The notes: generated from the letters alone by a model not told the origin. DNA of 32,000 nt from Dictyoglomus thermophilum H-6-12 (GCF_000020965.1 NC_011297.1:1428525-1460524), one strand, 5' to 3'; positions 4,547 through 30,984 are shown, numbered from the stretch's first letter. Numbers and translations are program-made.

Positions 4547-5397
4547 AAATACGGAGAAAAGGAAAAATCTCAGAAGGCGAATGGATTATCCTCTTAGATA
4601 ACAAAAAAAGATACCTAATACAAGTTGAGAGAGAAAAAGTATTTCATTTTCACAAAGGATATATAAAACATGAGGATATCATAGGAATAGAAGAGGGAAG
4701 CATTGTAAAATCCTCTCAAGGGGCAAACCTTCTTGTACTAAGACCTACTTACTCAGATTTTATTCTTGAGATGCCTCGTGGTGCTCAAATAATTTATCCT
4801 AAAGACATAGCAACCATATTAGTCTTTGCAGATATCTATCCTGGAGCAAGAGTTCTTGAGGCAGGAATCGGATCAGGAGCTCTAACTATTGCTCTTCTCC
4901 AAGCTGTAGGTGAAACAGGTACGGTAATATCTTACGAGATAAGAGAAGATTTTGCTAAGAGAGCCTTAGCTAATATAGAAAATTTTTTAGGAAGAAGAGA
5001 AAACCATATATTAAGATTGAAAGACATTTATGAGGAAATTGAAGACGAAAATATAGACAGGATAATTTTGGACTTACCAGAACCATGGAGAGCTATTGAT
5101 AAAGTCTTAAAGGCTTTAAGACCAGGAGGAATATTCTTAGCCTATACCCCTACCATAATTCAAGCTCAAAAAACCGTTGAAGCTCTAAAGACCACAAAAT
5201 CTTTTGTATTAATAGAAACCATTGAAACTCTCCTTAGGCCATGGCAAATTGAGGGTTTATCTGTAAGGCCTTTTCACAGAATGGTAGCTCATACTGCATT
5301 TTTGACAATAGCAAGAAAAATAATTACACAAGAAGAGAGTATATCTCCGATGGTTTTGCCTTCTGAAGAAATAGAAGAAAATTATGAGATTGAGTAA
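4543..5397 (+). CDS. trmI: tRNA (adenine-N1)-methyltransferase, TrmI type
   Basis: PRGAQIIYPKDIATILVFADIYPGARVLEAGIGSGALTIALLQAVGETGTVISYEIREDFAKRALANI; DRIILDLPEPW. Start overlaps the polX stop by 4 nt. Confidence 0.9.
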   Translation: MKIRRKGKISEGEWIILLDNKKRYLIQVEREKVFHFHKGYIKHEDIIGIEEGSIVKSSQGANLLVLRPTYSDFILEMPRGAQIIYPKDIATILVFADIYPGARVLEAGIGSGALTIALLQAVGETGTVISYEIREDFAKRALANIENFLGRRENHILRLKDIYEEIEDENIDRIILDLPEPWRAIDKVLKALRPGGIFLAYTPTIIQAQKTVEALKTTKSFVLIETIETLLRPWQIEGLSVRPFHRMVAHTAFLTIARKIITQEESISPMVLPSEEIEENYEIE

Positions 5398-14542: not shown

Positions 14543-15087
14543 TTTTTACCTCCTTTATAATATCTATCTTTCTCACTATATATACAACCACAATATTTTT
14601 GTCTATATAGGCCATACTCCTTAGACAAATTAACTCCCTCTCTATAACCCACTCTGAAATCTTCATAGTAAAACTCTATCTTATATTCATTAGCAAGGTA
14701 ATTTGCAATATCCTTAATAAGGTCGTGCCTCTGATAAGGACTCACAAGCATTGTAGTAGAAAAAAGATTAAATCCAAGCTCTTTTGCTTTTTCTACTGTT
14801 TTCTTTAAACGCATATAATAACACACAGGACATCTTTCTTTTTCTCTATAGACTACCTGCCTTATAAACTCTTCAAGAGCATAGTCATCTTCATAAACTA
14901 CCGGTAAATTTTGGTTCTCAGCAAAATCCTTTAGAGTATTTAAACGCATTGAATATTCTGTATAGGGATGAATGTTAGGATTATACCAAAAACCTGTAAC
15001 ATCAAAATTTTTTTCCCTCAATACCTTAAGAGGATAAGTAAGACAAGGAGCACAACAAATATGAATAAAGATTTTCTTATTGGTCAT
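14539..15087 (-). CDS. queH: Epoxyqueuosine reductase QueH (DUF208)
   Basis: HICCAPCLTYPLKVL, FWYNPNIHPYTEY, ERCPVCYYMRLKKT, YCGCIYS cysteine motifs. Confidence 0.9.
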   Translation of the reverse strand: MTNKKIFIHICCAPCLTYPLKVLREKNFDVTGFWYNPNIHPYTEYSMRLNTLKDFAENQNLPVVYEDDYALEEFIRQVVYREKERCPVCYYMRLKKTVEKAKELGFNLFSTTMLVSPYQRHDLIKDIANYLANEYKIEFYYEDFRVGYREGVNLSKEYGLYRQKYCGCIYSEKDRYYKGGKK

Positions 15088-16081
15088 GATAATACCTCAT
15101 TATATGAGCTAAACCGAGAGGAGTTATAACTCTTCCCCTTGAAGTCCTCTGAATAAAACCAATTCTTAAAAGATAAGGTTCATATATAGACTCAATAGTT
15201 TCAGGAGACTCATTGAGAACTGCTGCCAGAGTTTTCAACCCCACAGGTCCTCCTGAGAATTTATCTTTTAAAGTAAAAAGAATCTTTCTATCTAACTCAT
15301 CAAGACCATTTTCATCAATACCAATTAATTCAAGAACTTTTTTAGTTTCTGTTAAATCAATATTTTTATTATCCCTTAAATCAACATAATCTTTTATCCT
15401 CTTTAAAATCCTATTTGCAATTCTGGGAACACCTCTTGATCTCTTAGCAACTTCATAAATAGATTCATAGGAAAGATTTAATCCAAGAATTTTTTGGGAT
15501 CTTTCAATAATCTTAACCATCTCTTCATGAGTATAAAAGTCAAGAGTTGCTATAAAGCCAAAACGATCTCTCAGAGGAGTACTAAGCAATGCAGGCCTTG
15601 TGGTTGCACCTATTAGGGTAAAGGGGGGAAGTTTTAGACTCAAAACTTTACCGCCTGGACCCTTTCCAGCCACAATGCTTATACTTCCGTCTTCTAAAGC
15701 AGAATAAAGTATTTCTTCCAAGGAAGGACTTAATCTGTGAATTTCATCTATAAAAATAACTCCCTTCTCTTCAATCCCTGTAAGTAAAGCTATCAAGTCA
15801 CCACTTTTTTGTATTGATGGAGCAGATATCATTTTAATCTGAGTATTTTGTTCTTCTGCTATTATCAAAGCAAGGGTAGTTTTTCCTACGCCGGGAGGTC
15901 CTACAAAAAGAATATGGTCTATGGCTTCCTCTCTTTTTTTAGCAGCATTAATTATTAAAGCTAATCTTTCTTTTATCTTTTCTTGCCCTATAAATTCCGA
16001 TAAACTTTTGGGCCTTAAAGCATTATCAAGAGCTGGCTCTCTTTGTACAATAGAAAAATTAGGAAACTTCTTCATTTTCAT
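15077..16081 (-). CDS. ruvB: Holliday junction branch migration helicase RuvB
   Basis: LRPKSLSEFIGQEKIKERL, DHILFVGPPGVGKTTLALIIA, VIFIDEIHRLSP, LIGATTRPALLSTPLRDRFG. Confidence 0.98.
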   Translation of the reverse strand: MKMKKFPNFSIVQREPALDNALRPKSLSEFIGQEKIKERLALIINAAKKREEAIDHILFVGPPGVGKTTLALIIAEEQNTQIKMISAPSIQKSGDLIALLTGIEEKGVIFIDEIHRLSPSLEEILYSALEDGSISIVAGKGPGGKVLSLKLPPFTLIGATTRPALLSTPLRDRFGFIATLDFYTHEEMVKIIERSQKILGLNLSYESIYEVAKRSRGVPRIANRILKRIKDYVDLRDNKNIDLTETKKVLELIGIDENGLDELDRKILFTLKDKFSGGPVGLKTLAAVLNESPETIESIYEPYLLRIGFIQRTSRGRVITPLGLAHIMRYYHDQ

Positions 16082-16668
16082 GGCTCCTGAGATAACCTCT
16101 TTAGAGCAAACTTTATAATCTCTTCAAGATTATCTAAACTTTTAAATTCTTTCCTTATATCTCTCATAACCAATTCTATATCCTTCTTATCATATCCTAA
16201 ATTCAAAAGAGCATTTTTTATTACATTTTCTTCGTCATTATAAACCCTCTTAGGAATAACACCTTTTATTTCAAGAAAAATCTTTTGAGCAATCTTCTTT
16301 CCAATTCCAGGTATATTTAAAAGTGTATTCAAATCTTCTTTTTCAAGCACCTCATAAAACTCTTTAGGAGGAAGCGTAGAAACAATCCTTAAAGCAATTT
16401 TTACCCCAACCCCCGTAATATTTTTAAGACTTTCAAACAAATCTCTTTCTTCTTCAGACAAAAAACCAAAAAGCTTTACATTATCTTTCTCTATAACCTC
16501 TGCCACATAGAGCAATACATTATCACCCAATTTTTCATTAAGCTTTAAAGCCAAATTCTTTCCAATATAAATCTTAAAACCAAAAGCTCCTGTATCAACT
16601 ACAACAAAATCTTCAGCTATCCTTAAAAGTTTTCCATAGATATGGTTTAAAAATACCAAAATCAACAA
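16078..16668 (-). CDS. ruvA: Holliday junction branch migration protein RuvA
   Basis: IGVYIGKNL-type OB N-domain, SLKNITGVGVKIALRILS, LNIPGIGKKIAQKIFLEIK. Confidence 0.94.
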   Translation of the reverse strand: MLILVFLNHIYGKLLRIAEDFVVVDTGAFGFKIYIGKNLALKLNEKLGDNVLLYVAEVIEKDNVKLFGFLSEEERDLFESLKNITGVGVKIALRIVSTLPPKEFYEVLEKEDLNTLLNIPGIGKKIAQKIFLEIKGVIPKRVYNDEENVIKNALLNLGYDKKDIELVMRDIRKEFKSLDNLEEIIKFALKRLSQEP

Positions 16669-17138
16669 CCTTCCTGTTTATAAATGTAAGAAATACATAA
16701 AGCTAAAGCATCGGCTACATCATCTGGTTTAGGAATATCTTTTAATTTCAATACTTCTTTTACCATATACTGTACTTGATCTTTAGTAGCCCTACCGTAA
16801 CCTACCACCGAGAGTTTTACCTCAAGAGGAGTTAATATGGAAACCTCCCTCTGATGTTGTTGAGCTGCAAGAATTATAACACCCTGCGCCTGTCCTATAC
16901 TGATGGCAGTCTTGATATTTTTATTGAAAAAAACCTCTTCCATTACAACAGCATCGGGATTGTATAAATCTAAAAGAGAAGAGACTTGATCAAATAAATA
17001 ATTCAATCTCCTTCCAATACTCCAATTGGAAGGAGTAGTCAAAGCTCCATACTCAATTACAGCTATTTTGTCATCCTCTTTATTCAAAATGCCATAACCT
17101 GTTATTGCTGTTCCAGGATCAAACCCTATAACAATCAT
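16662..17138 (-). CDS. ruvC: Crossover junction endodeoxyribonuclease RuvC
   Basis: VIGFDPGTAITGYGIL, AVVMEEVFFNKN, VKLSVVGYGRATKDQVQYMV, KPDDVADALALAL-like motif. Confidence 0.97.
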   Translation of the reverse strand: MIVIGFDPGTAITGYGILNKEDDKIAVIEYGALTTPSNWSIGRRLNYLFDQVSSLLDLYNPDAVVMEEVFFNKNIKTAISIGQAQGVIILAAQQHQREVSILTPLEVKLSVVGYGRATKDQVQYMVKEVLKLKDIPKPDDVADALALCISYIYKQEGC

Positions 17139-17888
17139 CTATGAGAGAGACTGCAAAATTTCATCGGGTATATCAAAATTAGCATAAGTCTTTTGCACAT
17201 CATCATGATCTTCAAGCTCTTCCATAAGTTTTAGAACCTTTTCAGCGTCGGGCCCATCTACAGGTACTACATTCTTAGGAACTTTTGTTACCTCAGCTTG
17301 GGTAATTTTATATCCCTTTTCCTCAAGTACATTCTTTACCTCAGAAAAGTTTTCAGGACTTGTTATAATCTCAACACTATCTCCGCTTATCTGCACATCT
17401 TCAGCCCCAGCCTCAAGAGCATCCGCTATCAATTGATCTTCATCTTTTACACTCTCTTTTTCAATGAATATACTCCCTTTATCCTCAAAAATCCAAGCAA
17501 CACAGCCTGCCTCTCCAAGGCTTCCTCCATGTTTAGTAAATATCCTTCTTATCTCAGCCGCAGTTCTATTTTTATTATCCGTAACCACCTCTACCATTAT
17601 TGCAACTCCGCCAGGTCCATATCCCTCATAGGTTACTTCCTCATAAGCAACCCCAGGAATAGCTCCTATTCCCCTCATTATAGCCTTCTCTATATTTTCT
17701 TTAGGCATATTTGCCTCTTTAGCCCTTTCAATGGCAGCTCTCAAACGAGGATTAGTCTCAGGATTTCCTCCACCATGTTTTGCTGCTATTATAATTTCCT
17801 TACTCAATTGAGAGAAAAGTTTACCCTTTTTAGCATCCGCTGCTGCCTTTCTATGTTTAATATTTGCCCACTTAGAGTGTCCTGACAT
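17139..17888 (-). CDS. yebC: YebC/PmpR-family DNA-binding/translation protein
   Basis: [32 protein letters not shown]; SD AAGGAGG just upstream. Confidence 0.96.
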
Positions 17889-21356: not shown

Positions 21357-22391
21357 ATGTCCGAAAAGTTTATGATTAAAGAAATAAGAGAAGGGCTCCA
21401 TATAATCAAGAATTACAAAAATCGCTGGGAAGAATTTGTGGAAGTTTCAAATAAAATAAAATCTTTTGAATTTCATAATATTATTTTTGTGGCAAGAGGA
21501 TCGTCAGATAACGCTGCTACATGGGGAAAATATTATATGGAATCCCATTTGAATATTCCTGTATCCTTATGTGCTCCATCTTTATTTACTATCTACAAAC
21601 TCCCTCCTAATCTTAAATCTTCCCTTGTTATTGCCATCTCCCAGTCTGGAGAAAGTGATGACATCTGTGAAGTCGTGAGAAAAGCCAATGAACAAGGAGC
21701 TTTGACTATTGGTATAACCAATAATCCTCAAGGAAAGCTAGCTCAAATAGCCCAAATAAATATTTTTCTAAACTCAGGAGTAGAAAGAAGTGTTGCAGCC
21801 ACCAAAACCTATTTATCCCAATTGGTCTCTATCTATTTTTTAACAAATTCAATTATAGGTAGAAGTGCATTAGAAGAATTTGATAAAATATTAAACGCTA
21901 TGGAAGATATACAAAAGAGAGAAGAGGAAATAAAAGAAAAAGTAAAACCATATAAATACATGGAACACTGTGCAATCCTTGGAAGAGGGTTTAATTTATC
22001 TACAGCTTTAGAAACTGCTCTAAAGCTCAAGGAAACCTCTTATATTATTGCTCAAGCCTACTCCTCAGCAGATTTTATGCATGGTCCCCTTGCTCTTGCC
22101 TCGGAAGGATTTCCTGTATTTTTCTTCGTTCCTAAAGGAGAAAGTATGGAACATTCCTTGGAAGTTTTAGGAACCTTAAAGGAAAAGAGAAGCGATATAT
22201 TTATATTTACCAATGAAGCTGAGCTTACAAAAGAGTATGAGGGAATCTATATAGATTGTGATGTACCAGAATACGTCACCCCTATACCTTTTATTTACCC
22301 AGCTCAAATTTTTGCTTACTATCTTGCTGAGATTAAAGGAAGAGACCCTGACAATCCTAGAAACATAAGAAAGGTTACTATTACAAGATGA
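21357..22391 (+). CDS. SIS-domain protein (GlmS isomerase-domain/glucosamine-6-phosphate deaminase-like)
   Basis: IIFVARGSSDNAATWGKYYME, VIAISQSGESDD, GVERSVAATKTYLSQL, ALKLKETSYIIAQAYSSADFMHGPLAL. Confidence 0.9.
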   Translation: MSEKFMIKEIREGLHIIKNYKNRWEEFVEVSNKIKSFEFHNIIFVARGSSDNAATWGKYYMESHLNIPVSLCAPSLFTIYKLPPNLKSSLVIAISQSGESDDICEVVRKANEQGALTIGITNNPQGKLAQIAQINIFLNSGVERSVAATKTYLSQLVSIYFLTNSIIGRSALEEFDKILNAMEDIQKREEEIKEKVKPYKYMEHCAILGRGFNLSTALETALKLKETSYIIAQAYSSADFMHGPLALASEGFPVFFFVPKGESMEHSLEVLGTLKEKRSDIFIFTNEAELTKEYEGIYIDCDVPEYVTPIPFIYPAQIFAYYLAEIKGRDPDNPRNIRKVTITR

Positions 22392-22861
22392 ACCACATAT
22401 TTCAAATATTAAAAGATTTATCACAAAATCCAATATTCATAATCCCCATATTGGTAGCTATCATCACGCAAGGAATAAAAGGGTTAATAAGAAGTCTTCA
22501 GGAGAAAAAATTCCTCTGGAGAGCCTTTTTTGAGTGGGGCGGAATGCCAAGTTCTCACTCAGCCCTTGTAGTATCACTATCTCTCATAATTGGCATAAAA
22601 GAAGGCTTCAATTCTACTCTATATATTCTTTCCATGTTCTTTGCAGGTATAGTAATAGCAGATGCCATTGGTGTGAGACTTGCCACCGAGGAACAAGCAA
22701 AAGTTATAAACAAAATTATACAAAAGGAATTAAAAGATCCTGAGTTAAAAGAGATCTACTTAAAGGAGTCTATAGGGCATACGCCCATAGAGGCTATAAC
22801 TGGAGGAATTATCGGCCTCATCTTAGCCCATGTTATATACTACACATTTTTTGTAAAATGA
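22388..22861 (+). CDS. Divergent PAP2-family (DUF212) membrane protein
   Basis: QGIKGLIRSLQ, FEWGGMPSSHSALVVSLSLIIG, ADAIGVRLATEEQAKVIN, IGHTPIEAITGGIIG. Confidence 0.93.
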   Translation: MNHIFQILKDLSQNPIFIIPILVAIITQGIKGLIRSLQEKKFLWRAFFEWGGMPSSHSALVVSLSLIIGIKEGFNSTLYILSMFFAGIVIADAIGVRLATEEQAKVINKIIQKELKDPELKEIYLKESIGHTPIEAITGGIIGLILAHVIYYTFFVK

Positions 22862-24057
22862 AAATAGCATTCTTTAGTGATACCTATATTCCTCAGAAGA
22901 ATGGCGTAGCTACCTCTTTAAATTTTCTAAAGAAGACTTTAGAAGAGGAGAATCACTCCATTTACCTTTTTATACCCAATATTCCCAACCTTCCTAAAGA
23001 AAAAAATATATATATCCTTCCATCCATAACATTTCCCTTTCAGAAAGAGCACCGAGTTGCCCTACCCTACTCTCTAAAATATGACTTTATGATAAGAAAA
23101 ATAAATCCTCATGTAATACACACCCACTCTCCTTTTTCTCTCGGAATCTTTGGACTATACGAAGGGAAAAGGATAAAAAGACCAATAATCCATACTTATC
23201 ATACACTTCTTCCAGATTATGCCTATTACATATGGGATCACTTTCCAAATTTTATAAAGCAAAACATAATAGATGAAGAAAAAGCTAGAAAAATAGCTAT
23301 CTGGATAAGCAGAGAATACTGTAATCATTCCGATTTAGTTATTGCTCCCTCAACTAAAATAAAGAGACTTCTTAAAGAATTTGGGGTAAAAAAACCCATA
23401 GAAGTACTTCCTAATGGCATAGATTTGGATAAATTTAGGAAAATTCCTAAAAATGAAGCAAGAAAAGATTTAAATCTCCCCCTTAATGCAGTACTACTTC
23501 TTTTTGTAGGAAGACTTGGAAAGGAAAAAAATATTGAATTTCTCATCGAAGTACTAGAAATTATTAAGAATAATACAGATAAATTGATCTATCTGGTTAT
23601 CGTGGGAGATAATCCCGATAAAAGAGTAATGGAAGAGCTAAAAAATAAAGCTAAGGCTCTAAACGTCTACGATAGGACTATTTTTACTGGATATTTGGAT
23701 TATGATAAAGTTATTAAAGCCTATTACGCCTCTGATATATTTGTATTTTCTTCAATTACAGAAACTCAAGGCTTAGTCATTCTTGAAGCGATGGCATCAG
23801 GACTTCCTGTGGTGGCTATAGAAGATGATGCAATTTCAGATTTTGTTAAAAATGGAATAAATGGTTTTTTAATACCCAATAATCAAGAAGCTAAGAAAAT
23901 ATTTTCAGAAAAAATAATAACCCTCATTGAGAATAGGGATTTATATGAAAAAATGTCTATAAATGCCCTTGATAACTCAAAGCTTTTCCATATAAAAATC
24001 CTTAATAAAAAACTTCTCTCCTTGTATGAATACCTGATAAAAGAATATAATATATAA
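22858..24057 (+). CDS. Glycosyltransferase family 4 protein (diacylglycerol-glucosyltransferase-like)
   Basis: FFSDTYIPQKNGVATSLNFLKKTLE, TYHTLLPDYAYY, FVGRLGKEKNIEFLIE, SITETQGLVILEAMASGLPVV. Confidence 0.93.
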   Translation: MKIAFFSDTYIPQKNGVATSLNFLKKTLEEENHSIYLFIPNIPNLPKEKNIYILPSITFPFQKEHRVALPYSLKYDFMIRKINPHVIHTHSPFSLGIFGLYEGKRIKRPIIHTYHTLLPDYAYYIWDHFPNFIKQNIIDEEKARKIAIWISREYCNHSDLVIAPSTKIKRLLKEFGVKKPIEVLPNGIDLDKFRKIPKNEARKDLNLPLNAVLLLFVGRLGKEKNIEFLIEVLEIIKNNTDKLIYLVIVGDNPDKRVMEELKNKAKALNVYDRTIFTGYLDYDKVIKAYYASDIFVFSSITETQGLVILEAMASGLPVVAIEDDAISDFVKNGINGFLIPNNQEAKKIFSEKIITLIENRDLYEKMSINALDNSKLFHIKILNKKLLSLYEYLIKEYNI

Positions 24058-24059
24058 TA

Positions 24060-25169
24060 ATGCCCGATTTTATATCTCTCTTTATATCCGAAATAAAGAA
24101 AAAAAGACCCATTCTTGAGGAACTTCTTATTAAAAGAAGTCTTAGTGACAAATCTTTTGTTTCAGAGTTTATTGGGAAGATTTGGAATAAACTTTCAGAC
24201 TCCTATCAGTTTACCAACAAACCAACATTTGCCGTAGATGCTTCCCAAAGAACCCTATCCTTCTCTTTAGGACCTTATTTAATAATAACCCAAGCTCTTG
24301 CCATAGGCTCCAATGGATATGAAAAAGCTCTTGTATCTCTCGAGCCTGTATGGGGTTCTATACCAGAAACTCAACTGGGGCTCTTAAGAGACCTTTTAAT
24401 GCAAGATTTGGAAATTAGGCTTGCCCTTCAAATTATTAAAGAAAACAAAGCTCCTTTGATATTATTTATCGATGGCTCTTTATTATCAAGAATCTCATAC
24501 CTTTTGAGGTATTTATACAGTTTTGAAGATGAAAATTACAAAAACCTTGCTCGAGAAGTACTAATAAACACTTTAGATCTTATAAATTCTTCCAAGAACA
24601 ATGTAGATGTCATCTCTATTTCTAAGTCTTCCCGAAATACTTTTCTTTTCCAAATCCTATCTCTTGACAATCCTGATATAGATAAAACAACACCTTACAA
24701 ACCCACTGATAGCGAGATCTTAAGCATATTTACTTCAGAGCCCGGATATACAACTCCACTATTGATAGGAGCAGAGATGGGGCTTGGTCACAAACAATTA
24801 GAGATCATAGAAAAGGACCCAAACCTTCAAAATATTCTTAATAATTCTCCAGCCTTTTATACCTTCTATATAAGACTTATGCCAAGAGATCAGTTCCTAA
24901 GGATAGACTTCCCAGCCAATATGGTAGGAGAAAAGTCGAGTATACTCTCCGTAAATTACTTTTGGGGGAAAGATATAAATATAGATCAAATCTTAGGAGT
25001 ATTAAGAGAAAATTGTGTAAATACGAAGATATATCAAACTCCTTTGTATTTTGTGGACCAAATTGTTAGAATAAAAAGAGAACCTGACTTAGAAAGGTAT
25101 ATAATGATTTTGAAAACTGAATTTCCAGGAATTATTGAACTTGACAGAAGTCAAGGGAGGTTCTACTAA
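24060..25169 (+). CDS. nurA: NurA-domain nuclease
   Basis: TFAVDASQRTLSFSLGPYLIITQALAI and LILFIDGSLLSRI acidic motifs, RIDFPANM; immediately upstream of herA. Confidence 0.85.
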   Translation: MPDFISLFISEIKKKRPILEELLIKRSLSDKSFVSEFIGKIWNKLSDSYQFTNKPTFAVDASQRTLSFSLGPYLIITQALAIGSNGYEKALVSLEPVWGSIPETQLGLLRDLLMQDLEIRLALQIIKENKAPLILFIDGSLLSRISYLLRYLYSFEDENYKNLAREVLINTLDLINSSKNNVDVISISKSSRNTFLFQILSLDNPDIDKTTPYKPTDSEILSIFTSEPGYTTPLLIGAEMGLGHKQLEIIEKDPNLQNILNNSPAFYTFYIRLMPRDQFLRIDFPANMVGEKSSILSVNYFWGKDINIDQILGVLRENCVNTKIYQTPLYFVDQIVRIKREPDLERYIMILKTEFPGIIELDRSQGRFY

Positions 25170-25172
25170 TAA

Positions 25173-26855
25173 ATGGAATTAAAATGTGTAGGATACTTAG
25201 TAGGAGAAAGCTATTGTGATAATTTCCAATTTATTACCAACGAAGAATTAGCTCCTAAAAGGCTCGAATATGTGGTAATCAAAGGGATTGCCTCTTCAAA
25301 TGAGGAAGTAGAAGTATTAGCTCAAGTAGAAAGTCTAAAAGCCTTTTCAGATGTACTCTCAGAAGATCAAGAATACGATGCTACAACAAAACTTTTGGAA
25401 TTAAACTACAAGATTCCTCTAAAACTTATAGCTTCTGCAAGAGTACTAGGATATTTGGACAAAGATGGAAATATTCTTCTTCCTAGATCTGTATCTCTCC
25501 CAGGTTCTCCTGTATACCTTGCCCCCGATGACCTTCTTCAAAGATTCTTTACCCACAATAAAAGCACTGCTATTGAAATAGGTACTCTTCTTTACAGACC
25601 TAACGTAAAAGTTACCCTTGACCCTAACGGCCTTAGAAGGCACCTTGCCATAATAGCTCAAACAGGGGCAGGAAAATCTTATCTCACAGGACTTCTTTTA
25701 GAGAAACTTGTAAAGTTAGGAGCAACTATACTGGTCTTTGATCCTAATAGTGATTATGTACTTTTAAGAAGAAAAAGAAACAATTTAAAAGAATTCTCGT
25801 CTATTGCCCATAATGTCACTATTTATAGAATTCCTAAAGTACAAGGAAGATTTTCCGATGATATGATAGGTGGTGTGGAACCTTACTCCATAAGGTTTAG
25901 CGAATTAGAAAATGAACAAATAGCAGAAATTCTTGGAATATCCGAATATAGCAATATAAGAGATGCCGTTGAAAAAGCAATTGAAGAATTAAGAGAGTCA
26001 AGAATAGATTTCACTCCCAATGAGTTATATGAGAAACTTAAGGATATGGCAGGAATAGAAGAAAAAGATGAAGAAGATTTTAGTCTGGACTTTGATGACT
26101 ACGAAAGAAAAATTATAGAAAAAATGGAAAAAAAGAATAAGAAAAAATATCCTGAGGAAACTATGATTGGAGCAAGGAAGGCACTAAAATATGTAAAATG
26201 GATAAAGGATTATCCTATATGGGGATTTAAAGATATCTCTCCTGAAAAAATATTAAAACCTGCCCACATATCAGTCATTGATCTTGCAGGAATAGAAAAA
26301 AATCTTCAAGATCTTGTAGTTAGTAAACTCTTAAATGATATATGGACAAAAGCAAAGTCTGAGGGTCTTCCCTATCCTTTGTTTATAGTACTCGAAGAGG
26401 CCCATAACTTAGTGCCAAAAGAAAAGGGAGAAAAATTAAAAAGTGCAAGAATAATAAACTCCATCGCTGCAGAGGGTAGAAAATTTAAAGTATTTCTTAT
26501 AGTAGTTACCCAAAGACCTTATAAAATAAGCAGTAATACTCTTTCTCAATGCGGAAGTCAAATCATTATGAGACTCACAAATCCCACTGATCAGACTGCA
26601 GTGAAAGAAGCTTCCGAAGCTCTCTCTGAGAATCTATTCCAGGATCTTCCAGGATTAAATATTGGAGAAGCAATAATTCTAGGAAGATTAACCAAAATAC
26701 CTGTAATGGTAAAGATTGGAGAAAGAGAAACTGCAGAGGGTGGATTTGATATTGACTTAGAAGAAGAATTCCAAAAAGCTTTAGACAACATAGAAAGTAC
26801 TATGATAGAAAAGAATGATACAGAAATTCTACCTGACTTTGGGAGTGAAATCTAA
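25173..26855 (+). CDS. herA: HerA-family DNA translocase/helicase
   Basis: N-terminal HAS-barrel-like region, Walker A HLAIIAQTGAGKSYLTGLLLEKL, Walker B PLFIVLEEAHNLVPKEKG, VVTQRPYKISSNTLSQCGSQIIMRLTNPTD. Confidence 0.95.
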   Translation: MELKCVGYLVGESYCDNFQFITNEELAPKRLEYVVIKGIASSNEEVEVLAQVESLKAFSDVLSEDQEYDATTKLLELNYKIPLKLIASARVLGYLDKDGNILLPRSVSLPGSPVYLAPDDLLQRFFTHNKSTAIEIGTLLYRPNVKVTLDPNGLRRHLAIIAQTGAGKSYLTGLLLEKLVKLGATILVFDPNSDYVLLRRKRNNLKEFSSIAHNVTIYRIPKVQGRFSDDMIGGVEPYSIRFSELENEQIAEILGISEYSNIRDAVEKAIEELRESRIDFTPNELYEKLKDMAGIEEKDEEDFSLDFDDYERKIIEKMEKKNKKKYPEETMIGARKALKYVKWIKDYPIWGFKDISPEKILKPAHISVIDLAGIEKNLQDLVVSKLLNDIWTKAKSEGLPYPLFIVLEEAHNLVPKEKGEKLKSARIINSIAAEGRKFKVFLIVVTQRPYKISSNTLSQCGSQIIMRLTNPTDQTAVKEASEALSENLFQDLPGLNIGEAIILGRLTKIPVMVKIGERETAEGGFDIDLEEEFQKALDNIESTMIEKNDTEILPDFGSEI

Positions 26856-28036
26856 TGATCAAAATCGTGATTACTGCAGACAATCACTTGGGAAAGTATT
26901 ACAAGAAACTGCTTCCAGAAAGATTGCAAGAACGAAGAAAAAGGTTAAGAAATGTCTTTGAGGAAGTAGTAAATTACGCTATAGAAGAAAAAGCAGATAT
27001 CTTTATCCATGCTGGAGACTTATTTGATTCCTCAACTCCCAGGAACCAAGATCTAACTTTTATTGCTCGTGAATTTTCAAAAATGGTAAAAAATAACATA
27101 AAAATATACGCTATTGGAGGAAATCATGATGCTCCAAATATGCTTGAGTCTGACTCTTACCCTATAAGGATTTTTGAAGAAGCAGGATTAATAAAGACCT
27201 TTTCCTCGCAGTCTACAATAAGCTATGAAATCTTCGAAAAAGATAACATAAGTATACTTGTTTCTGGCCTATCTCATGACCCAAGAAAAAAGGGAAAAAT
27301 AGACCCATTAGAAAAAAATGTAATAGTTCCTCCAGATTTCCCTAAGGAAAACAATTTATTCAAGATCCTAATTCTTCACTACTCCTTTGAAAAATTTGCT
27401 CACCCCAAAGCCCAAGAGCCCCAAGTCTCCACTAACACTCTTTACGATTTGCCTTTTGATCTTTATATATTAGGTCACTTACATGAACAAAACACCTATC
27501 GCTTTGCCAACAAACATGTAATTATTCCTGGCAGTACAGAAAGATTTGATTTTGGAGAAGAAAATCTTAAACCAGGATTTTATCTCTTAACTATTGAAAA
27601 GGGAAGGATAAATTATGAACATATAGAGCTGAACGTTCAGCCAATGAAAAATTTAGAAATTAAATTAACAGAAATACCACAAAAAGAACCTACAAATTCC
27701 ATTATAGAGAGAATAATAAAAAACTCCCACAAAGACCTACTTTTAAAATGCAAACTTGTGGGAGAGATTCCACTCTCCATGTATCAGTCTATTAACTTTA
27801 GTAAAATTCTCGAGGCAGGAATAAACTCTAACTTTTTGTTTGATCTTGATACCCAAAACTTAAGAATAAAGGGTGAAGAGATAAATACCCTCCCTGCTCC
27901 AGAGCTTAGTGTTGACAAAAATCTTGAAATAATTACAAAAAAATATATAGAAGAAGTTCCTGAAGACAGAGAGATAATATTAGAGGCTTTGAAATGGATA
28001 AAAGAAGAATTAAAAAGTAGAGAAATAATACTATGA
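26855..28036 (+). CDS. mre11: Mre11/SbcD-like DNA double-strand break repair nuclease
   Basis: VITADNHLGKYY, DIFIHAGDLFDSS, YAIGGNHDAPN, LILHYSFE, DLYILGHLHEQ. Start overlaps the herA stop (TAATG). Confidence 0.92.
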   Translation: MIKIVITADNHLGKYYKKLLPERLQERRKRLRNVFEEVVNYAIEEKADIFIHAGDLFDSSTPRNQDLTFIAREFSKMVKNNIKIYAIGGNHDAPNMLESDSYPIRIFEEAGLIKTFSSQSTISYEIFEKDNISILVSGLSHDPRKKGKIDPLEKNVIVPPDFPKENNLFKILILHYSFEKFAHPKAQEPQVSTNTLYDLPFDLYILGHLHEQNTYRFANKHVIIPGSTERFDFGEENLKPGFYLLTIEKGRINYEHIELNVQPMKNLEIKLTEIPQKEPTNSIIERIIKNSHKDLLLKCKLVGEIPLSMYQSINFSKILEAGINSNFLFDLDTQNLRIKGEEINTLPAPELSVDKNLEIITKKYIEEVPEDREIILEALKWIKEELKSREIIL

Positions 28037-30984
28037 TTAAACTTGTAAGTCTTACTCTTAGGAACTTTAAACAATATCGAACTGCTCATATAAACTTTCC
28101 TGAAAAAGGTAAGATCCTTATCAAGGGAAAAAATGAGGCAGGAAAAAGCACCATATTTGAAGCTATAGGCTTTGCCCTATTTGGGAAACCGGTATATGTG
28201 GGTACCATTTCAAACCTGATAAAGTTTAATACAGAAAAAGCAGAAATTGAACTTGTAGTAAAAACTGAAGATAAAATCTTAACTATAAGCAGAACACTTA
28301 AGAAAAACCCTCAAGGTAGTACCTCTCAGGAAGCTACACTTCGCATAAAGCAAAATAATAATCCAACTCCTATTATCGTAACAAACCCTAGCAGTGTAAA
28401 TCCAAGAATTATAAAAGAAATAGGCATAGACCAAGATATATTCATAAATACCTGCTTCATAGGGCAGAAAAGGTTAGAAACATTAGAGAATTTAGGAGCT
28501 AAAGAAAGACAACAACTTATATCTAAACTATTTAATTTAGATTACTTTGTAAATCTAATAGAAAAGGCAAAAGATACAAGAAAGGAATTTATAAGTCAAA
28601 AAGAGAACTATGAACTTATTAGAAAAGCAGCAGAAGCCAAGAAAGAACTCCCTGAAATTAAGGAAAGAATTAATGAAATAGAAAACAGAATAAAGGAAAT
28701 CGAAAAGATAGAATTATCTCAAAATATTGTAAAAAAAGAGGAACTCTTACATAACTTAGAAGAAGAGATTAAAAAATTAGAGGAAGAATTTGATAAAGTA
28801 AAAAAGGATGTGGAACTATTAGAAAAGTGCAAAGAAGAGGAGAAAATTATAAGCGAAATAAAAAGTATTGAGGAAAAAATCAAAGTACTGGAAAGACAGA
28901 AGAGTGAAAACTTACAAAGAATTAAAAATTTAGAGGAAAGGATAAAAGAAGAAGGAGAGATAAGAGAAAAAATAAGGTTTTTGGAGGAAGTAAAAAATAT
29001 AAAATCTCAAATTGATGAAATCACAAAAACAATAAATGAGGAAAAATTAAAAATCTCAAAACTGGAAGAGATAATCCCAAATCTGTCAGAAAAGGTAGAA
29101 AAATATAAAGAAACAATTAAGGAAATAGAAAAAGAAAAAACTTTATTAGATGAAATTAACAAAGTAGAAAATGAAATCCAGAAACTTGAAGAAAGAAAAA
29201 GAAATCTTGAAAAAAGAAAAGAAAGGTTAGAAAAAATATTAAATAACTTTTCAAATACCAAAGAAATTCTTGATCCTTATAAAAAAGCATTAGAGTACAA
29301 AGAAAAAGAAATCCAAATTTTCTCATTACAAAAAGATTTCTCAAAGGCTAAAAATAGACTAATTCTTACTTCTACCTTAACTATCCTTTCCTTTGTTTTA
29401 TCCTTTGCTTTAAACTACTTTTTCCTAATACCCTCCTTGGTACTCCTAATCTTTAGTTTTCTTACCTATAGAAATTATTCTCAAACCAATAAAGATCTCA
29501 CTAAACAATTAAGCATTTTGGAATTTATAAAAAAAGACATTCCTGACCATCTTAAAGATAAAAATCAAAAAGAGTTAGAACAAGAGCTCCAAAATCTTGA
29601 AAAAGAACTTGAAGCTAAGAAAATTAAAACAGAAAAAATAATAGAATCGTTAAAGACAAAAGCCTCAAGTATAGACACTTTAACCTTAATAGAGGAAAGG
29701 ACAAAGCTAAAAAGAGAAATTGACAACATAAACTCACTAAAAACTGAGGCTGAAAGATTAATCTCCGAGCTTGCCTCAAGGCTTAGTTGTAATAAAGATA
29801 TTAAATCTGTAGAAGAAAAATTACTAAAGGCACAAGAGATCTTAGAAAAGAAAAAGCAAGAACTTAAAGAAAAAGAAACAGAAATGGAAAATCTAAAAAA
29901 ATCCGATCCCCTTCCTGACAAGGAACTTTTAGTTTTAAGCTCTGAAAAAGGCTCTTTGGAAAATAGGCTTAAAAATATAGAGGAAGATAAAAAAGAGTTA
30001 GCTGATAAAGAGAAGAGAAAAATAGAGCTTGAAGAAGATATCAAAAGAGCACAAGATGAAATTGAAAGGCTATCGAAAAAATTACCTTCATTAAGCGAAG
30101 ATTATATAAATAAATTGAAGGATACTATAAAAGACTTAGAGGAAAGAAAGGTAAAAGAAAAATACGACAGTATATCATCCCAACTGAACAATAAGAGGGG
30201 ACAAAGAGAGGCTGTAGAAAAAGAATATACCAAACTTATCGAAGAATTCAAAAATCGTTTTAAGGAAGAAAATTGGAAAGACTATGCTTCAATAAGCATA
30301 GACCCTAAGGAAAAAGAAATGCTTTTGAGTCAAAAAGAAGAACTTATCAAAACCCTCGGAGAAAAGGAGGCTATACTTGAAGAGTATGAGAGCAAAACAG
30401 GACAAAAAAGGGATGACTTGATACCAGAAAAAGTAGAAGAAGACTATAAAGAGATAGAAAGAAAAATACAAAAAATGGATTATGCTATCAAGATTGCTGA
30501 AAGTACAAGAGAAAGCATATTAAAATCTATACTTCCAAGAACCATGGCTTTTATGCAAAGAATATTACCTATCTTAACATCAGATAGATACCATTACGCC
30601 GAGATTGATGAAGATTATAAACTAAGAGTATACACCAGCGATACTAAAGATCCATTAGGAAAAGAAAGATTCAGTGGTGGAACTCAGGACCAGATCTCTT
30701 TAGCTTTAAGGCTTGCTTTTGCTATGGCAACTCTTCCCCAAGATAAAGGAGTACAACCTAAATTCATATTCTTAGATGAACCTTTAGGGTCCTTTGATGA
30801 AGACAGAGCAAAAGGACTATTATATCTCATAACCCAAGGAGAAGTATCAGAATTTTTTGATCAAATATTTGTAGTAACTCACGTACCGATAGACGAAGAC
30901 CTATTCGATGAAGTCTATTACATAGATAATGGACAAATAACAAAAATAGATAATGATAATCCTAATCTAAATTTAGAGTTTTAA
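28033..30984 (+). CDS. rad50: Rad50/SbcC/YhaN-like SMC-type ATPase with a central hydrophobic hairpin and no CxxC hook
   Basis: Walker A IKGKNEAGKSTIFEAIGFALFG, long coiled coils, hydrophobic segment aa 443-479, signature RFSGGTQDQISLALRLAFAMA, Walker B FIFLDEPLGSFDEDRAKG. 4-nt overlap with mre11. Confidence 0.93.
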   Translation: MIKLVSLTLRNFKQYRTAHINFPEKGKILIKGKNEAGKSTIFEAIGFALFGKPVYVGTISNLIKFNTEKAEIELVVKTEDKILTISRTLKKNPQGSTSQEATLRIKQNNNPTPIIVTNPSSVNPRIIKEIGIDQDIFINTCFIGQKRLETLENLGAKERQQLISKLFNLDYFVNLIEKAKDTRKEFISQKENYELIRKAAEAKKELPEIKERINEIENRIKEIEKIELSQNIVKKEELLHNLEEEIKKLEEEFDKVKKDVELLEKCKEEEKIISEIKSIEEKIKVLERQKSENLQRIKNLEERIKEEGEIREKIRFLEEVKNIKSQIDEITKTINEEKLKISKLEEIIPNLSEKVEKYKETIKEIEKEKTLLDEINKVENEIQKLEERKRNLEKRKERLEKILNNFSNTKEILDPYKKALEYKEKEIQIFSLQKDFSKAKNRLILTSTLTILSFVLSFALNYFFLIPSLVLLIFSFLTYRNYSQTNKDLTKQLSILEFIKKDIPDHLKDKNQKELEQELQNLEKELEAKKIKTEKIIESLKTKASSIDTLTLIEERTKLKREIDNINSLKTEAERLISELASRLSCNKDIKSVEEKLLKAQEILEKKKQELKEKETEMENLKKSDPLPDKELLVLSSEKGSLENRLKNIEEDKKELADKEKRKIELEEDIKRAQDEIERLSKKLPSLSEDYINKLKDTIKDLEERKVKEKYDSISSQLNNKRGQREAVEKEYTKLIEEFKNRFKEENWKDYASISIDPKEKEMLLSQKEELIKTLGEKEAILEEYESKTGQKRDDLIPEKVEEDYKEIERKIQKMDYAIKIAESTRESILKSILPRTMAFMQRILPILTSDRYHYAEIDEDYKLRVYTSDTKDPLGKERFSGGTQDQISLALRLAFAMATLPQDKGVQPKFIFLDEPLGSFDEDRAKGLLYLITQGEVSEFFDQIFVVTHVPIDEDLFDEVYYIDNGQITKIDNDNPNLNLEF

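What the first reader, a model, noticed from the sequence alone, without database searches (positions are those of the whole stretch)
28033..30984. Rad50-like ATPase with a hydrophobic (likely transmembrane) hairpin where the zinc hook should be
Seen directly: the 983 aa protein has no CxxC anywhere; its only cysteines are isolated (NTCFIG, EKCKEE, RLSCNK). Near the midpoint of the coiled-coil region, aa 443-479 (29359..29469) reads LILTSTLTILSFVLSFALNYFFLIPSLVLLIFSFLTY: two hydrophobic stretches separated by a short N/P-containing turn and flanked by charged, coiled-coil-like sequence. Canonical Rad50/SbcC proteins dimerise at the apex via a CxxC zinc hook or other apex interface. Here the apex appears to be replaced by a membrane-inserting or hydrophobic-pairing hairpin. 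This predicts an Mre11-Rad50-like complex whose coiled-coil tip is held in the membrane. From memory, Bacillus YhaN (partner of the Mre11-like YhaO) also has hydrophobic segments, so the architecture may not be unique. Its occurrence inside a full NurA-HerA-Mre11-Rad50 operon is the notable part.
Basis: partly seen in the sequence, partly recalled or inferred. Interest (0 to 1): 0.85.

Follow-up and report, generated by a model that had tools for sequence, protein, structure and literature searches.

The report
Membrane-hairpin Rad50 replacing the zinc hook
This bacterial DNA-break-repair ATPase (Rad50) has, in place of the zinc hook at the tip of its long arm, two hydrophobic helices that look like a membrane anchor, and the same design is found in thousands of unstudied bacterial and archaeal relatives.

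Summary
ORF 28033..30984 encodes a 983-aa Rad50-type ABC ATPase with all catalytic motifs, three isolated cysteines and no CxxC. It ends a tight NurA-HerA-Mre11-Rad50 operon on a Dictyoglomota-like chromosome.

Residues 443-479 form a 37-residue run with no charged residue; about 1e-5 such runs are expected by chance. AlphaFold2 models it as helix, one-residue turn at N461, helix.

The feature is a family trait. All Dictyoglomota orthologues down to 35% identity keep it. Of the 136 best full-length cluster representatives in a 1.84-billion-protein search, 114 have it and none has a central CxxC. It also occurs in Chloroflexota, Bathyarchaeia, Thermofilaceae, Geoglobus, Nitrospira, Armatimonadota, Acidobacteriota and Promethearchaeota, often next to Mre11, HerA and NurA.

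Both flanks of the run are strongly Lys/Arg-rich, as expected for a membrane hairpin with both ends in the cytoplasm.

Best reading: the hairpin anchors, and probably dimerises, the coiled-coil tip in the cytoplasmic membrane. Membrane insertion itself is inferred, not shown.

The closest described relative is B. subtilis SbcE/YhaN. I found no published description of this clade. It is a new variant of a known kind.

The parts
24060..25169 (+). NurA nuclease gene (369 aa), first gene of the end-resection block
   Evidence: Pfam PF09376 NurA, 3.9e-18; NCBIfam NurA_Sulf, 2e-8, far below its cut-off
25173..26855 (+). HerA hexameric helicase/translocase gene (560 aa)
   Evidence: Pfam PF01935, 1e-37, plus a weak HAS-barrel match below its cut-off. 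NCBIfam helicase_HerA scores 232 bits, higher than the antiphage HerA models at 128 and 120 bits
26855..28036 (+). Mre11/SbcD-family nuclease gene (393 aa); its stop overlaps the Rad50 start by 4 bp
   Evidence: Pfam Metallophos, 3.7e-15; NCBIfam Mre11_Sulfo, 3e-29. The phosphoesterase motifs DNH, GDLFD, GNHD and GHLH are visible in the translation
28033..30984 (+). Rad50-like ABC ATPase with a hydrophobic hairpin at the apex (983 aa plus stop)
28126..28149 (+). Walker A / P-loop, GKNEAGKS (aa 32-39), with Glu where hook-type relatives have Gly
   Evidence: Invariant in alignment A1. GxNE[AS]GKS occurs in the large majority of the 172 hairpin-type proteins tallied (all 12 most frequent variants, 151 proteins) versus GxNG[AS]GKS in most hook-type proteins of the same homologue set
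28540..29358 (+). N-terminal coiled-coil arm, aa 170-442 (about 40 nm as a helix)
   Evidence: AlphaFold2 DSSP gives helices 170-365 and 367-460
29359..29412 (+). Hydrophobic helix 1 of the hairpin, aa 443-460, LILTSTLTILSFVLSFAL, preceded by KAKNR
29413..29415 (+). Turn residue N461, the apex of the molecule
   Evidence: It is the only non-helical residue between helices 367-460 and 462-500. Asn is conserved at this column in most Dictyoglomota orthologues
29416..29469 (+). Hydrophobic helix 2 of the hairpin, aa 462-479, YFFLIPSLVLLIFSFLTY, with Pro467, followed by RNYSQTNK
29470..30576 (+). C-terminal coiled-coil arm, aa 480-848, with several short breaks
   Evidence: AlphaFold2 DSSP. Matching low-pLDDT joints at aa 250-280 and aa 680-710 are consistent with antiparallel pairing
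30673..30693 (+). ABC signature motif SGGTQDQ (aa 881-887)
   Evidence: S881, G882, G883, D886 and Q887 are invariant in A1
30769..30783 (+). Walker B FLDEP (aa 913-917), followed by the D-loop and H-loop (H950, nt 30880-30882)
   Evidence: Invariant in A1; Pfam SbcC_Walker_B gives a weak match below its cut-off

Best explanation
The gene encodes a catalytically intact Rad50-family ABC ATPase, the partner of the Mre11 nuclease encoded just upstream.

Its two roughly 270-residue coiled-coil arms are joined by a helix-turn-helix made of two 18-residue apolar helices, not by a CxxC zinc hook. I propose that this hairpin inserts into the cytoplasmic membrane with both ends on the cytoplasmic side.

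The ATPase/Mre11 head would then hang about 40 nm into the cytoplasm on a rod whose tip is fixed in the bilayer. The hairpins of the two Rad50 subunits of one Mre11(2)Rad50(2) complex would pack side by side in the membrane. That would close the apex as zinc does in canonical Rad50.

The complex would still recognise and cut DNA ends and pass them to HerA-NurA for resection, but it would do so tethered to the membrane. Broken or incoming DNA ends would therefore be held at the cell envelope.

Shown here:
- the intact ATPase motifs, the operon and the absence of a hook;
- the hydrophobic hairpin at the turning point of the rod;
- its conservation, its mutual exclusivity with the hook and the positive-inside flanks.

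Inferred: membrane insertion, pairing of hairpins within the membrane, and the biological role.
For: (1) Rad50 identity.
- Walker A, Q-loop, signature, Walker B and H-loop are invariant in 22 hairpin-type proteins.
- The best solved relatives are archaeal and Thermotoga Rad50 heads (E 4.5e-37 to 2.4e-32), against E. coli SbcC at 1e-12.
- The best NCBIfam matches are Rad50 models.
- Foldseek aligns the whole model to folded SMC and Rad50 rods.

(2) Hairpin at the apex.
- There is one 37-residue uncharged run, with KD19 of 2.23 and a chance expectation of about 1e-5.
- AlphaFold2 places a one-residue turn at N461 between two long helices.

(3) Conservation of the property rather than the sequence.
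- All Dictyoglomota orthologues from 98% down to 35% identity keep a run of about 37-42 residues, uninterrupted or split by one Lys.
- The profile search found 3143 cluster representatives at E<=1e-30. Of the best 136 full-length ones, 114 have a central KD19 of at least 2.0, about 14 more score 1.85-1.99, and none has a central CxxC.

(4) Replacement of the hook.
- Among the 104 homologues from the similarity search, 28 have the hairpin at relative position 0.37-0.50 and no CxxC. Seventy-two have a central CxxC (mostly CPxC) at about 0.5 and no hydrophobic run. None has both.
- A tree built from the heads alone groups 26 of the 28 hairpin-type proteins in one clade apart from all hook-type proteins; the other two (P0020, P0045) branch on their own near the root.

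(5) Membrane topology signal in 226 non-identical hairpin-type proteins.
- In the five residues flanking the run, K+R versus D+E is 436:58 on the N side and 359:82 on the C side.
- The same ratio in their coiled coils is 0.83.
- Tyr or Trp is common at the C-terminal edge.

(6) Analogue. The central domain of B. subtilis SbcE/YhaN lacks CxxC, is hydrophobic with a conserved proline, and is completely insoluble when expressed. SbcE acts in double-strand-break repair and transformation and gathers at the poles of competent cells (PMC2811018).

(7) Modularity of the apex. The Rad50 hook can be exchanged for an SMC hinge (title and abstract of PMC6969161).

(8) Housekeeping context.
- The gene order SIS, DUF212, GT4, NurA, HerA, Mre11, Rad50, GalU is conserved in five Dictyoglomota loci.
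- PolX, RecJ and RuvABC lie in the same window.
Against: - No experiment and no dedicated transmembrane predictor was available.
- Each half is only 18 residues long, and the Hessa sums are near zero (-1.3 and +0.25 kcal/mol). A re-entrant hairpin that does not fully span the bilayer is therefore equally compatible.
- The model coordinates could not be inspected, so packing of helix 462-500 against 423-460 rests on the secondary-structure string and arm lengths.
- The model is a monomer, and pairing of hairpins was not modelled.
- SbcE-YFP was reported as foci on nucleoids as well as at the poles. That does not by itself indicate a membrane protein.
- A Chloroflexota subgroup of the same clade has neither a hook nor a hairpin, so the apex module can be dispensed with or replaced again.
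- I could not establish whether these genomes also carry a hook-type SbcCD/Rad50.
Confidence: 0.72

Rival explanations
1. The hairpin is a soluble hydrophobic dimerisation or oligomerisation module. The two helices of each subunit would bury against those of the partner in a four-helix bundle in the cytosol. This would replace the zinc hook without involving any membrane.
For: The apex of Rad50 is a dimerisation device, and swapping it for another dimeriser works (PMC6969161). The halves are short at 18 residues, and the Hessa sums are near zero. SbcE was seen on nucleoids.
Against: - The run contains 37-61 consecutive residues without any charge and has a low hydrophobic moment of about 0.2, so no polar face would remain for solvent.
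- Lys/Arg enrichment on both flanks (436:58 and 359:82, against a background ratio of 0.83) is a membrane-topology signature and is not expected for a soluble bundle.
- The sequence of the run drifts freely while its hydrophobicity is kept, and its length varies from 37 to 61 residues.
- The SbcE central domain is insoluble.
Confidence: 0.08
2. The operon is an anti-phage or anti-plasmid defence module. A membrane-anchored SMC-like sensor (compare Lamassu LmuB or Wadjet JetC) would work with nucleases to destroy invading linear DNA at its point of entry, rather than serve chromosomal repair.
For: - PADLOC model LmuB PDLC03859 matches at 2.3e-28 over aa 2-470, and HerA defence models match at up to 9e-52.
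- The giant relative P0020 lies next to a BrxL_N gene.
- SbcE acts on incoming DNA in competent cells.
- HerA and Rad50 genes sit beside archaeal DNA-import (Ted) genes (PMC9905601).
Against: - The PADLOC matches are generic SMC and HerA similarity, and no NurA or Mre11 defence model matches well.
- The NCBIfam repair-type HerA model scores higher than the antiphage HerA models (232 versus 128 bits).
- The locus has the same housekeeping neighbours in five Dictyoglomota genomes that differ by up to 65% in protein sequence, which is unlike a variable defence island.
- No close relative was found on viral contigs or plasmids.
Confidence: 0.15
3. The hydrophobic stretch has no functional meaning. 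It would be low-complexity drift in an AT-rich genome, or a gene-call or frameshift artefact.
For: The genome has 33% G+C. This favours Phe, Ile, Leu, Asn, Lys and Tyr codons.
Against: - The ORF is continuous, and 98% to 35% identical orthologues keep the same two-helix run in register.
- GC-rich Chloroflexota and archaeal relatives have the same feature built from Ala, Gly, Leu and Val.
- The rest of the protein is 39% charged.
Confidence: 0.01

Closest known systems
Canonical Rad50/SbcC of the Mre11-Rad50 (SbcCD) complex, e.g. P. furiosus, M. jannaschii and T. maritima Rad50, and E. coli SbcC
   Same: It shares the split ABC ATPase head with all motifs and the long antiparallel coiled coil. 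It has an adjacent Mre11-family nuclease gene and, as in thermophilic archaea, linkage to herA and nurA. The heads are most similar to solved archaeal and Thermotoga Rad50.
   Different: There is no CxxC zinc hook; a 37-residue apolar helical hairpin sits at the apex instead. The P-loop reads GxNE[AS]GKS rather than GxNG[AS]GKS. Scores are far below every NCBIfam Rad50 equivalog cut-off (108 bits against 1000).
Bacillus subtilis SbcE (YhaN) with SbcF (YhaO) (Krishnamurthy et al. 2009/2010, PMC2811018)
   Same: SbcE is an SMC/SbcC-like ATPase with coiled coils of about 300 residues. It has no CxxC, and its 'unique central domain' is hydrophobic, carries a conserved proline and is insoluble. It is partnered with an Mre11/SbcD-like nuclease encoded next to it.
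   Different: The gene context differs: yhaO-yhaN-yhaM there, nurA-herA-mre11-rad50 here. The paper does not interpret the domain as a membrane hairpin. Direct sequence comparison was not possible because no YhaN sequence could be obtained. Pfam AAA_27 matches only the first 90 residues (31 bits) and is weaker than AAA_23 (82 bits).
Archaeal NurA-HerA-Mre11-Rad50 end-resection operon (Constantinesco et al. 2004, cited in PMC9905601)
   Same: The same four gene families lie in one tight operon.
   Different: The host here is a bacterium (Dictyoglomota), and the Rad50 member carries a membrane-type hairpin. Hook-type versions of the operon also exist in bacteria, on Priestia and Pontibacillus replicons.
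Mitofusin/Fzo1-type architecture (from general knowledge; an analogy only)
   Same: A U-shaped hydrophobic hairpin is inserted between two coiled-coil segments, so that both segments face the same compartment.
   Different: The fold is unrelated (a GTPase) and so is the function (membrane fusion); there is no homology.

Membership tests
Rad50/SbcC (ATPase of the Mre11-Rad50 complex) | ABC ATPase head split into N- and C-terminal halves, with Walker A, Q-loop, signature motif, Walker B, D-loop and H-loop | tested here: met
   GKNEAGKS, Q145, SGGTQDQ (881-887), FLDEP (913-917) and H950 are invariant in A1. Pfam AAA_23 scores 9.7e-23. PDB Rad50 heads match at E 4.5e-37 to 2.4e-32.
Rad50/SbcC (ATPase of the Mre11-Rad50 complex) | Long intramolecular antiparallel coiled coil between the two head halves | tested here: met
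   AlphaFold2 gives helices from 170 to 848 with one turn at 461. Foldseek aligns more than 1000 columns to Smc5/6 and C. thermophilum Rad50 rods.
Rad50/SbcC (ATPase of the Mre11-Rad50 complex) | CxxC zinc hook at the coiled-coil apex | tested here: not met
   The protein has no CxxC, and neither do the 28 hairpin-type homologues or the 136 best full-length representatives.
Rad50/SbcC (ATPase of the Mre11-Rad50 complex) | Partner Mre11/SbcD nuclease encoded adjacently | tested here: met
   A Metallophos/Mre11 gene at 26855..28036 overlaps the start by 4 bp. Of 37 related loci with enough upstream sequence, 19 have Mre11 directly upstream and 25 have it somewhere in the locus.
Rad50/SbcC (ATPase of the Mre11-Rad50 complex) | Reaches the curated NCBIfam Rad50 or SbcC equivalog score | tested here: not met
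   The best score is Rad50_Sulf at 107.8 bits against a cut-off of 1000; sbcc scores 48.7 against 478.5.
SbcE/YhaN | SMC-like ATPase without CxxC, with a hydrophobic central domain containing a conserved proline | tested here: met
   The description in PMC2811018 matches aa 443-479 with P467, which is conserved as 'IP' or 'LP' in most orthologues.
SbcE/YhaN | Specific sequence homology to B. subtilis YhaN beyond the generic SMC head | not testable with these tools
   No YhaN sequence could be retrieved; the plasmid search returned only hook-type proteins. The only indirect evidence is Pfam AAA_27: 31 bits over aa 3-92 (cut-off 22), with a best E-value of 3e-11 among 40 diverse clade members.
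SbcE/YhaN | yhaO-yhaN-yhaM gene context | tested here: not met
   Here the context is nurA-herA-mre11-rad50, followed by a convergent galU.
NurA-HerA-Mre11-Rad50 end-resection system | All four gene families encoded in one cluster | tested here: met
   The same four genes accompany hairpin-type Rad50 in L002, L007-9, L011, L018, L023, L025, L027-29, L034, L045, L049, L059, L072, L074, L076 and L078.
Anti-phage SMC-like systems (Lamassu LmuB, Wadjet JetC, PtuA) | Specific model match together with the system's partner genes, in a variable defence locus | tested here: not met
   Only partial, generic matches were found (LmuB 97.8 bits, JetC below 34 bits). No LmuA/C or JetABD partners are present. 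The housekeeping gene order is conserved.
Two-helix membrane hairpin (both ends in the cytoplasm) | Two apolar helices of about 18-22 residues, a short turn, and positive-inside flanks | tested here: met
   KD19 of 2.23, Eisenberg <H> of 0.69 and 0.79, and a turn at N461. Flank K+R versus D+E is 436:58 and 359:82, against a background ratio of 0.83.
Two-helix membrane hairpin (both ends in the cytoplasm) | Physical association with the membrane | not testable with these tools
   This requires fractionation or topology reporters.

The most novel reading that the evidence does not exclude
A large clade of Mre11-Rad50 machines, found in both bacteria and archaea, is permanently anchored in the cytoplasmic membrane through the coiled-coil tip. 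At least 3143 clusters at 50% identity belong to it, from Dictyoglomota, Chloroflexota, Armatimonadota, Nitrospira, Bathyarchaeia, Thermoproteota, Archaeoglobi and Promethearchaeota. A transmembrane hairpin would then be a third kind of SMC-family apex, after the hinge and the zinc hook. In these organisms DNA-end recognition, tethering and HerA-NurA resection would take place at the envelope, on broken chromosomes held at the membrane or on DNA entering the cell.
Probability: 0.55. Interest if true: 0.8.

Novelty: new variant of a known kind. Interest (0 to 1): 0.68.

Why it matters
What the Rad50 apex is for remains an open question: closing one complex, bridging two DNA ends, or both. A natural, widespread variant exchanges zinc-mediated dimerisation for a membrane hairpin. 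It shows that the apex is a replaceable module and gives a ready-made test case.

If the tip is fixed in the bilayer, hook-to-hook bridging between two complexes in three dimensions cannot occur. Whatever these complexes do must then rely on closure within one complex, or on two-dimensional clustering in the membrane.

The variant also implies that double-strand-break processing or processing of incoming DNA is spatially coupled to the envelope in many poorly studied phyla. Finally, it offers an explanation for the old, unexplained 'unique insoluble central domain' of B. subtilis SbcE.

These proteins are currently annotated only as 'AAA family ATPase', 'SMC family ATPase' or 'exonuclease SbcC'.

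Tried and rejected
- Obtaining B. subtilis YhaN for a direct comparison. A tblastn search of the plasmid collection gave only 9 weak matches. The Priestia, Pontibacillus, Haloferax and Thermus loci I examined were all hook-type (CPVC, CPIC, CPKC, CPLC). The SbcE paper has no supplement held as text. The AlphaFold-database fold library was not available.
- Treating the GxNE[AS]GKS P-loop as a marker exclusive to the hairpin type. It holds within the homologue set. It was rejected as exclusive because SMC-like proteins of about 570-760 aa on viral contigs combine GANEAGKS with a central CxxC.
- Defence-system membership. PADLOC gave only generic matches.
- Prior descriptions in the literature. 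Eight searches (Rad50, zinc hook, transmembrane, HerA, NurA, SMC-like, membrane-anchored, YhaN, SbcE and similar terms) and a search for the string 'NEAGKS' found nothing on a membrane-hairpin Rad50. The library covers open-access papers only.
- The genome scan used the peptide patterns [KR]G[KPR]NEAGKS and PxF[IL]FLDEPL, so it was biased towards this clade. For that reason I base the statement that none has a hook on the pattern-free HMMER search.
- A Pfam model for the central domain. None exists among the matches of 40 diverse members.
- The antisense ORF at 29565..30044 was dismissed as the mirror image of Lys/Glu-rich codons.

Full report
WHAT IS THERE

The ORF at 28033..30984 (+) is real and encodes 983 aa. 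It is the last gene of a tightly packed block:
- NurA, 24060..25169, PF09376;
- HerA, 25173..26855, PF01935/DUF87 with a weak HAS-barrel match below its cut-off; the NCBIfam repair-type HerA model scores 232 bits, above the antiphage HerA models at 128 and 120 bits;
- Mre11, 26855..28036, Metallophos; the best NCBIfam models are Mre11;
- the Rad50-like gene, whose ATG overlaps the Mre11 stop by 4 bp.

The closest named relative is from Dictyoglomus turgidum at 66% identity, so the window comes from a Dictyoglomota-like bacterium with 33% G+C. The rest of the window is ordinary chromosome. It is rich in recombination and repair genes: PolX, RecJ, RuvABC and YebC, alongside SecDF, Tgt, QueA and QueH.

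The protein has three isolated cysteines (C141, C266, C586) and no CxxC. Residues 443-479 read LILTSTLTILSFVLSFAL-N-YFFLIPSLVLLIFSFLTY. They are the only long uncharged stretch in a protein that is 39% D, E, K or R. The expected number of such 37-residue runs is about 1e-5.
- Every 19-residue window with Kyte-Doolittle hydropathy above 1.6 lies in this stretch; the maximum is 2.23.
- Summed Hessa insertion energies are -1.3 and +0.25 kcal/mol for the two halves, against a median of +26 for the protein.
- Eisenberg <H> is 0.69 and 0.79 with a moment of about 0.2, so the helices are uniformly apolar and not amphipathic.

IT IS A RAD50, AND THE HAIRPIN IS ITS APEX

An alignment with 21 relatives (A1) shows invariant Walker A (GKNEAGKS), Q-loop Q145, signature SGGTQDQ, Walker B FLDEP and H950. 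A profile of A1 finds archaeal and Thermotoga Rad50 heads as the best solved relatives (4.5e-37 to 2.4e-32). E. coli SbcC follows at 1e-12, and SMC proteins score lower still.

AlphaFold2 (mean pLDDT 80) gives:
- a globular head built from both termini;
- an essentially unbroken helix from 170 to 460;
- one non-helical residue, N461;
- a helix from 462 to 500, followed by a segmented helical arm back to the head.

pLDDT across the hairpin is 77-86. Because the N-arm has no other break, the chain must reverse at or after 461. The N-arm is 272 residues, or about 40 nm. The C-arm has roughly 290-320 helical residues. Paired low-confidence joints at about 250-280 and 680-710 fit antiparallel pairing. 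Foldseek aligns the whole model to folded SMC and Rad50 rods. I could not inspect coordinates, so direct packing of the two apolar helices is inferred.

IT IS A FAMILY TRAIT THAT REPLACES THE HOOK

A similarity search returned 104 homologues.
- Twenty-eight carry a central uncharged hydrophobic run, at relative position 0.37-0.50, and have no CxxC.
- Seventy-two have a central CxxC (mostly CPxC) at about 0.5 and no hydrophobic run.
- None has both.
- A neighbour-joining tree of the head domains alone groups 26 of the 28 hairpin-type proteins in one clade apart from all hook-type proteins. P0020 and P0045 branch on their own near the root. The tree has no bootstrap and is rooted at the midpoint.

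Within this set the P-loop also differs: GxNE[AS]GKS in the hairpin type and GxNG[AS]GKS in most of the hook type. The marker is not exclusive, because proteins on viral contigs combine NEAGKS with a CxxC.

A pattern-free HMMER search of 1.84 billion cluster representatives with the A1 profile gave 3143 hits at E<=1e-30. Of the best 136 full-length hits, 114 have a central KD19 of at least 2.0 and about 14 more score 1.85-1.99. About 7 have nothing, and none has a central CxxC. The mean relative position is 0.45.

A scan of one genome per species placed hairpin-type genes in Dictyoglomota, many Chloroflexota, Nitrospira, Armatimonadota, Acidobacteriota, Bathyarchaeia, Thermofilaceae and Geoglobus. 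This scan was biased towards the clade by its peptide patterns. Other searches add Promethearchaeota and the cultured Armatimonas rosea.

Of 37 such loci with at least 5.5 kb upstream, 25 contain Mre11 (19 directly adjacent), 16 contain HerA, 13 contain NurA and 12 contain all three. Metagenomic examples L002, L005 and L006 show the same operon. Sources annotate these proteins only as 'AAA family ATPase', 'SMC family ATPase', 'exonuclease SbcC' or 'hypothetical protein'.

EVIDENCE FOR MEMBRANE INSERTION

The strongest argument beyond hydropathy is the positive-inside rule. In 226 non-identical hairpin-type proteins, the five residues flanking the run hold K+R versus D+E of 436:58 on the N side and 359:82 on the C side. 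The ratio in their own coiled coils is 0.83. The residue that ends the run is K or R in 199 of 226 cases on the N side and 206 of 226 on the C side. Positive charge on both flanks is what a two-helix hairpin with both ends in the cytoplasm predicts, and the cytoplasmic head requires exactly that topology.

Other features point the same way:
- The turn region nearly always contains P, G or N (198 of 226), and Tyr or Trp is common at the C-terminal edge.
- The sequence of the run is poorly conserved and its composition follows genomic G+C: Phe, Ile, Leu and Ser in Dictyoglomota; Ala, Gly, Leu and Val in Chloroflexota. Its length ranges from 37 to 61 residues. This behaviour is typical of lipid-facing helices with a variable outer loop.
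- In Dictyoglomota the conserved positions cluster at the turn (LSF-x-N ... F-x-I-P).

MOST LIKELY MECHANISM

I propose that the hairpin fixes the coiled-coil tip in the cytoplasmic membrane. The two hairpins of an Mre11(2)Rad50(2) complex would associate laterally and close the apex as zinc does elsewhere. The intact ATPase/Mre11 head, about 40 nm away, would process DNA ends and feed HerA-NurA.

Two consequences follow. Broken or incoming DNA would be held at the envelope. Zinc-hook-style bridging between complexes in three dimensions would be replaced by two-dimensional clustering in the membrane.

Published support for the parts of this idea:
- The hook is a constitutive dimerisation module interchangeable with an SMC hinge (PMC6969161).
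- B. subtilis SbcE/YhaN lacks CxxC and has a hydrophobic, proline-containing, insoluble central domain. It works in double-strand-break repair and transformation and gathers at the poles of competent cells (PMC2811018).
- herA and rad50 genes are linked to membrane DNA-import systems in Thermoproteales (PMC9905601).

Whether the hairpin spans the bilayer or is re-entrant cannot be decided here.

RIVAL EXPLANATIONS
- A soluble hydrophobic bundle is unlikely, given the lack of any polar face and the basic flanks.
- A dedicated defence role is possible but not favoured. PADLOC matches are generic. The locus and its housekeeping neighbours are syntenic in five Dictyoglomota genomes. No close relatives occur on viral contigs or plasmids.
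- Compositional drift or a gene-call artefact is excluded by conservation across lineages of opposite base composition.

COMPARISON WITH KNOWN SYSTEMS AND NOVELTY

The protein works like a Rad50 and shares the head, the coiled coil, the Mre11 partner and the operon. It fails two membership tests for canonical Rad50/SbcC: the zinc hook and the curated NCBIfam scores.

It resembles SbcE/YhaN in every feature described for that protein, but membership could not be tested because no YhaN sequence was obtainable. The gene context differs, and Pfam AAA_27 matches only the P-loop region.

Hook-type NurA-HerA-Mre11-Rad50 operons also exist in bacteria. The operon therefore does not dictate the apex type.

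Nine full-text searches found no description of a membrane-hairpin Rad50 or of this clade. The library is limited to open-access papers, and automatic transmembrane annotations probably exist in sequence databases (from memory).

I rate it a new variant of a known kind, with interest 0.68. The finding is robust as an observation, broad in distribution and directly testable. Its key inference, membrane insertion, is still computational.

Noticed in passing
window 2804-4546 (+), 5324-7798 (-), 15077-17138 (-), 17139-17888 (-): The same 32-kb window also encodes PolX (Pol-beta thumb and palm plus PHP), RecJ, RuvB, RuvA, RuvC and YebC. The Rad50 operon therefore sits in a stretch of chromosome rich in repair and recombination genes.
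   Followed up: partly
window 21357-24057 (+): Genes for a SIS-domain protein, a DUF212 (divergent PAP2, membrane) protein and a GT4 glycosyltransferase run directly into nurA with overlaps or gaps of 1-4 bp. The same order, followed by a convergent galU, is conserved in five Dictyoglomota loci (L007-9, L023, L027). This suggests possible co-transcription of envelope genes with the repair operon.
   Followed up: partly
L032, L033, L036, L042, L043; proteins P0114, P0118, P0129, P0133, P0203: A Chloroflexota subgroup of the same NE[AS]GKS clade, about 980-993 aa long, has neither a central CxxC nor a hydrophobic hairpin. Its mid-region looks like ordinary Ala/Glu/Arg-rich helix, so it may have a third, unknown kind of apex.
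   Followed up: partly
L088-L125 (IMG/VR viral contigs): SMC-like ATPases of about 570-760 aa on viral contigs combine the GANEAGKS-type P-loop with a central CxxC (for example TACGLCGK and GSCATCGQ). The Glu-containing P-loop is therefore not tied to the membrane hairpin.
   Followed up: partly
L004 5049-9773; proteins P0020, P0162, P0250: Giant hairpin-type versions exist, at 1574, 1695 and 1383 aa; P0020 and P0250 are from Promethearchaeota (P0162 carries no name). P0020 follows an Mre11-like gene and is followed by a gene with a BrxL_N domain, a BREX defence component.
   Followed up: no
L028-L030, L063, L072, L076, L078 (Bathyarchaeia, Geoglobus): The archaeal hairpins end in a shared G-G-Y-[LI]-[FYV] motif at the cytoplasmic end of helix 2. 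This small-residue motif could mediate helix-helix packing.
   Followed up: no
window 29565-30044 (-): A 159-aa antisense ORF lies inside the Rad50 gene and is rich in Ser, Phe and Leu. It is the mirror image of the Lys/Glu-rich coiled-coil codons and not a gene.
   Followed up: yes
L015, L020, L026, L038, L040, L048, L050, L051, L054, L055, L061, L066: In 12 of 37 hairpin-type loci, mostly Anaerolineae, no Mre11, HerA or NurA gene was detected in the fetched locus (up to 9 kb on each side). The partner nuclease may be encoded elsewhere or may differ.
   Followed up: no
L086 (Priestia megaterium pFDU301A), L087 (Pontibacillus plasmid): Large Bacillota replicons carry hook-type NurA-HerA-Mre11-Rad50 operons followed by murA. 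The Priestia record has no annotation at this locus in the plasmid collection.
   Followed up: partly
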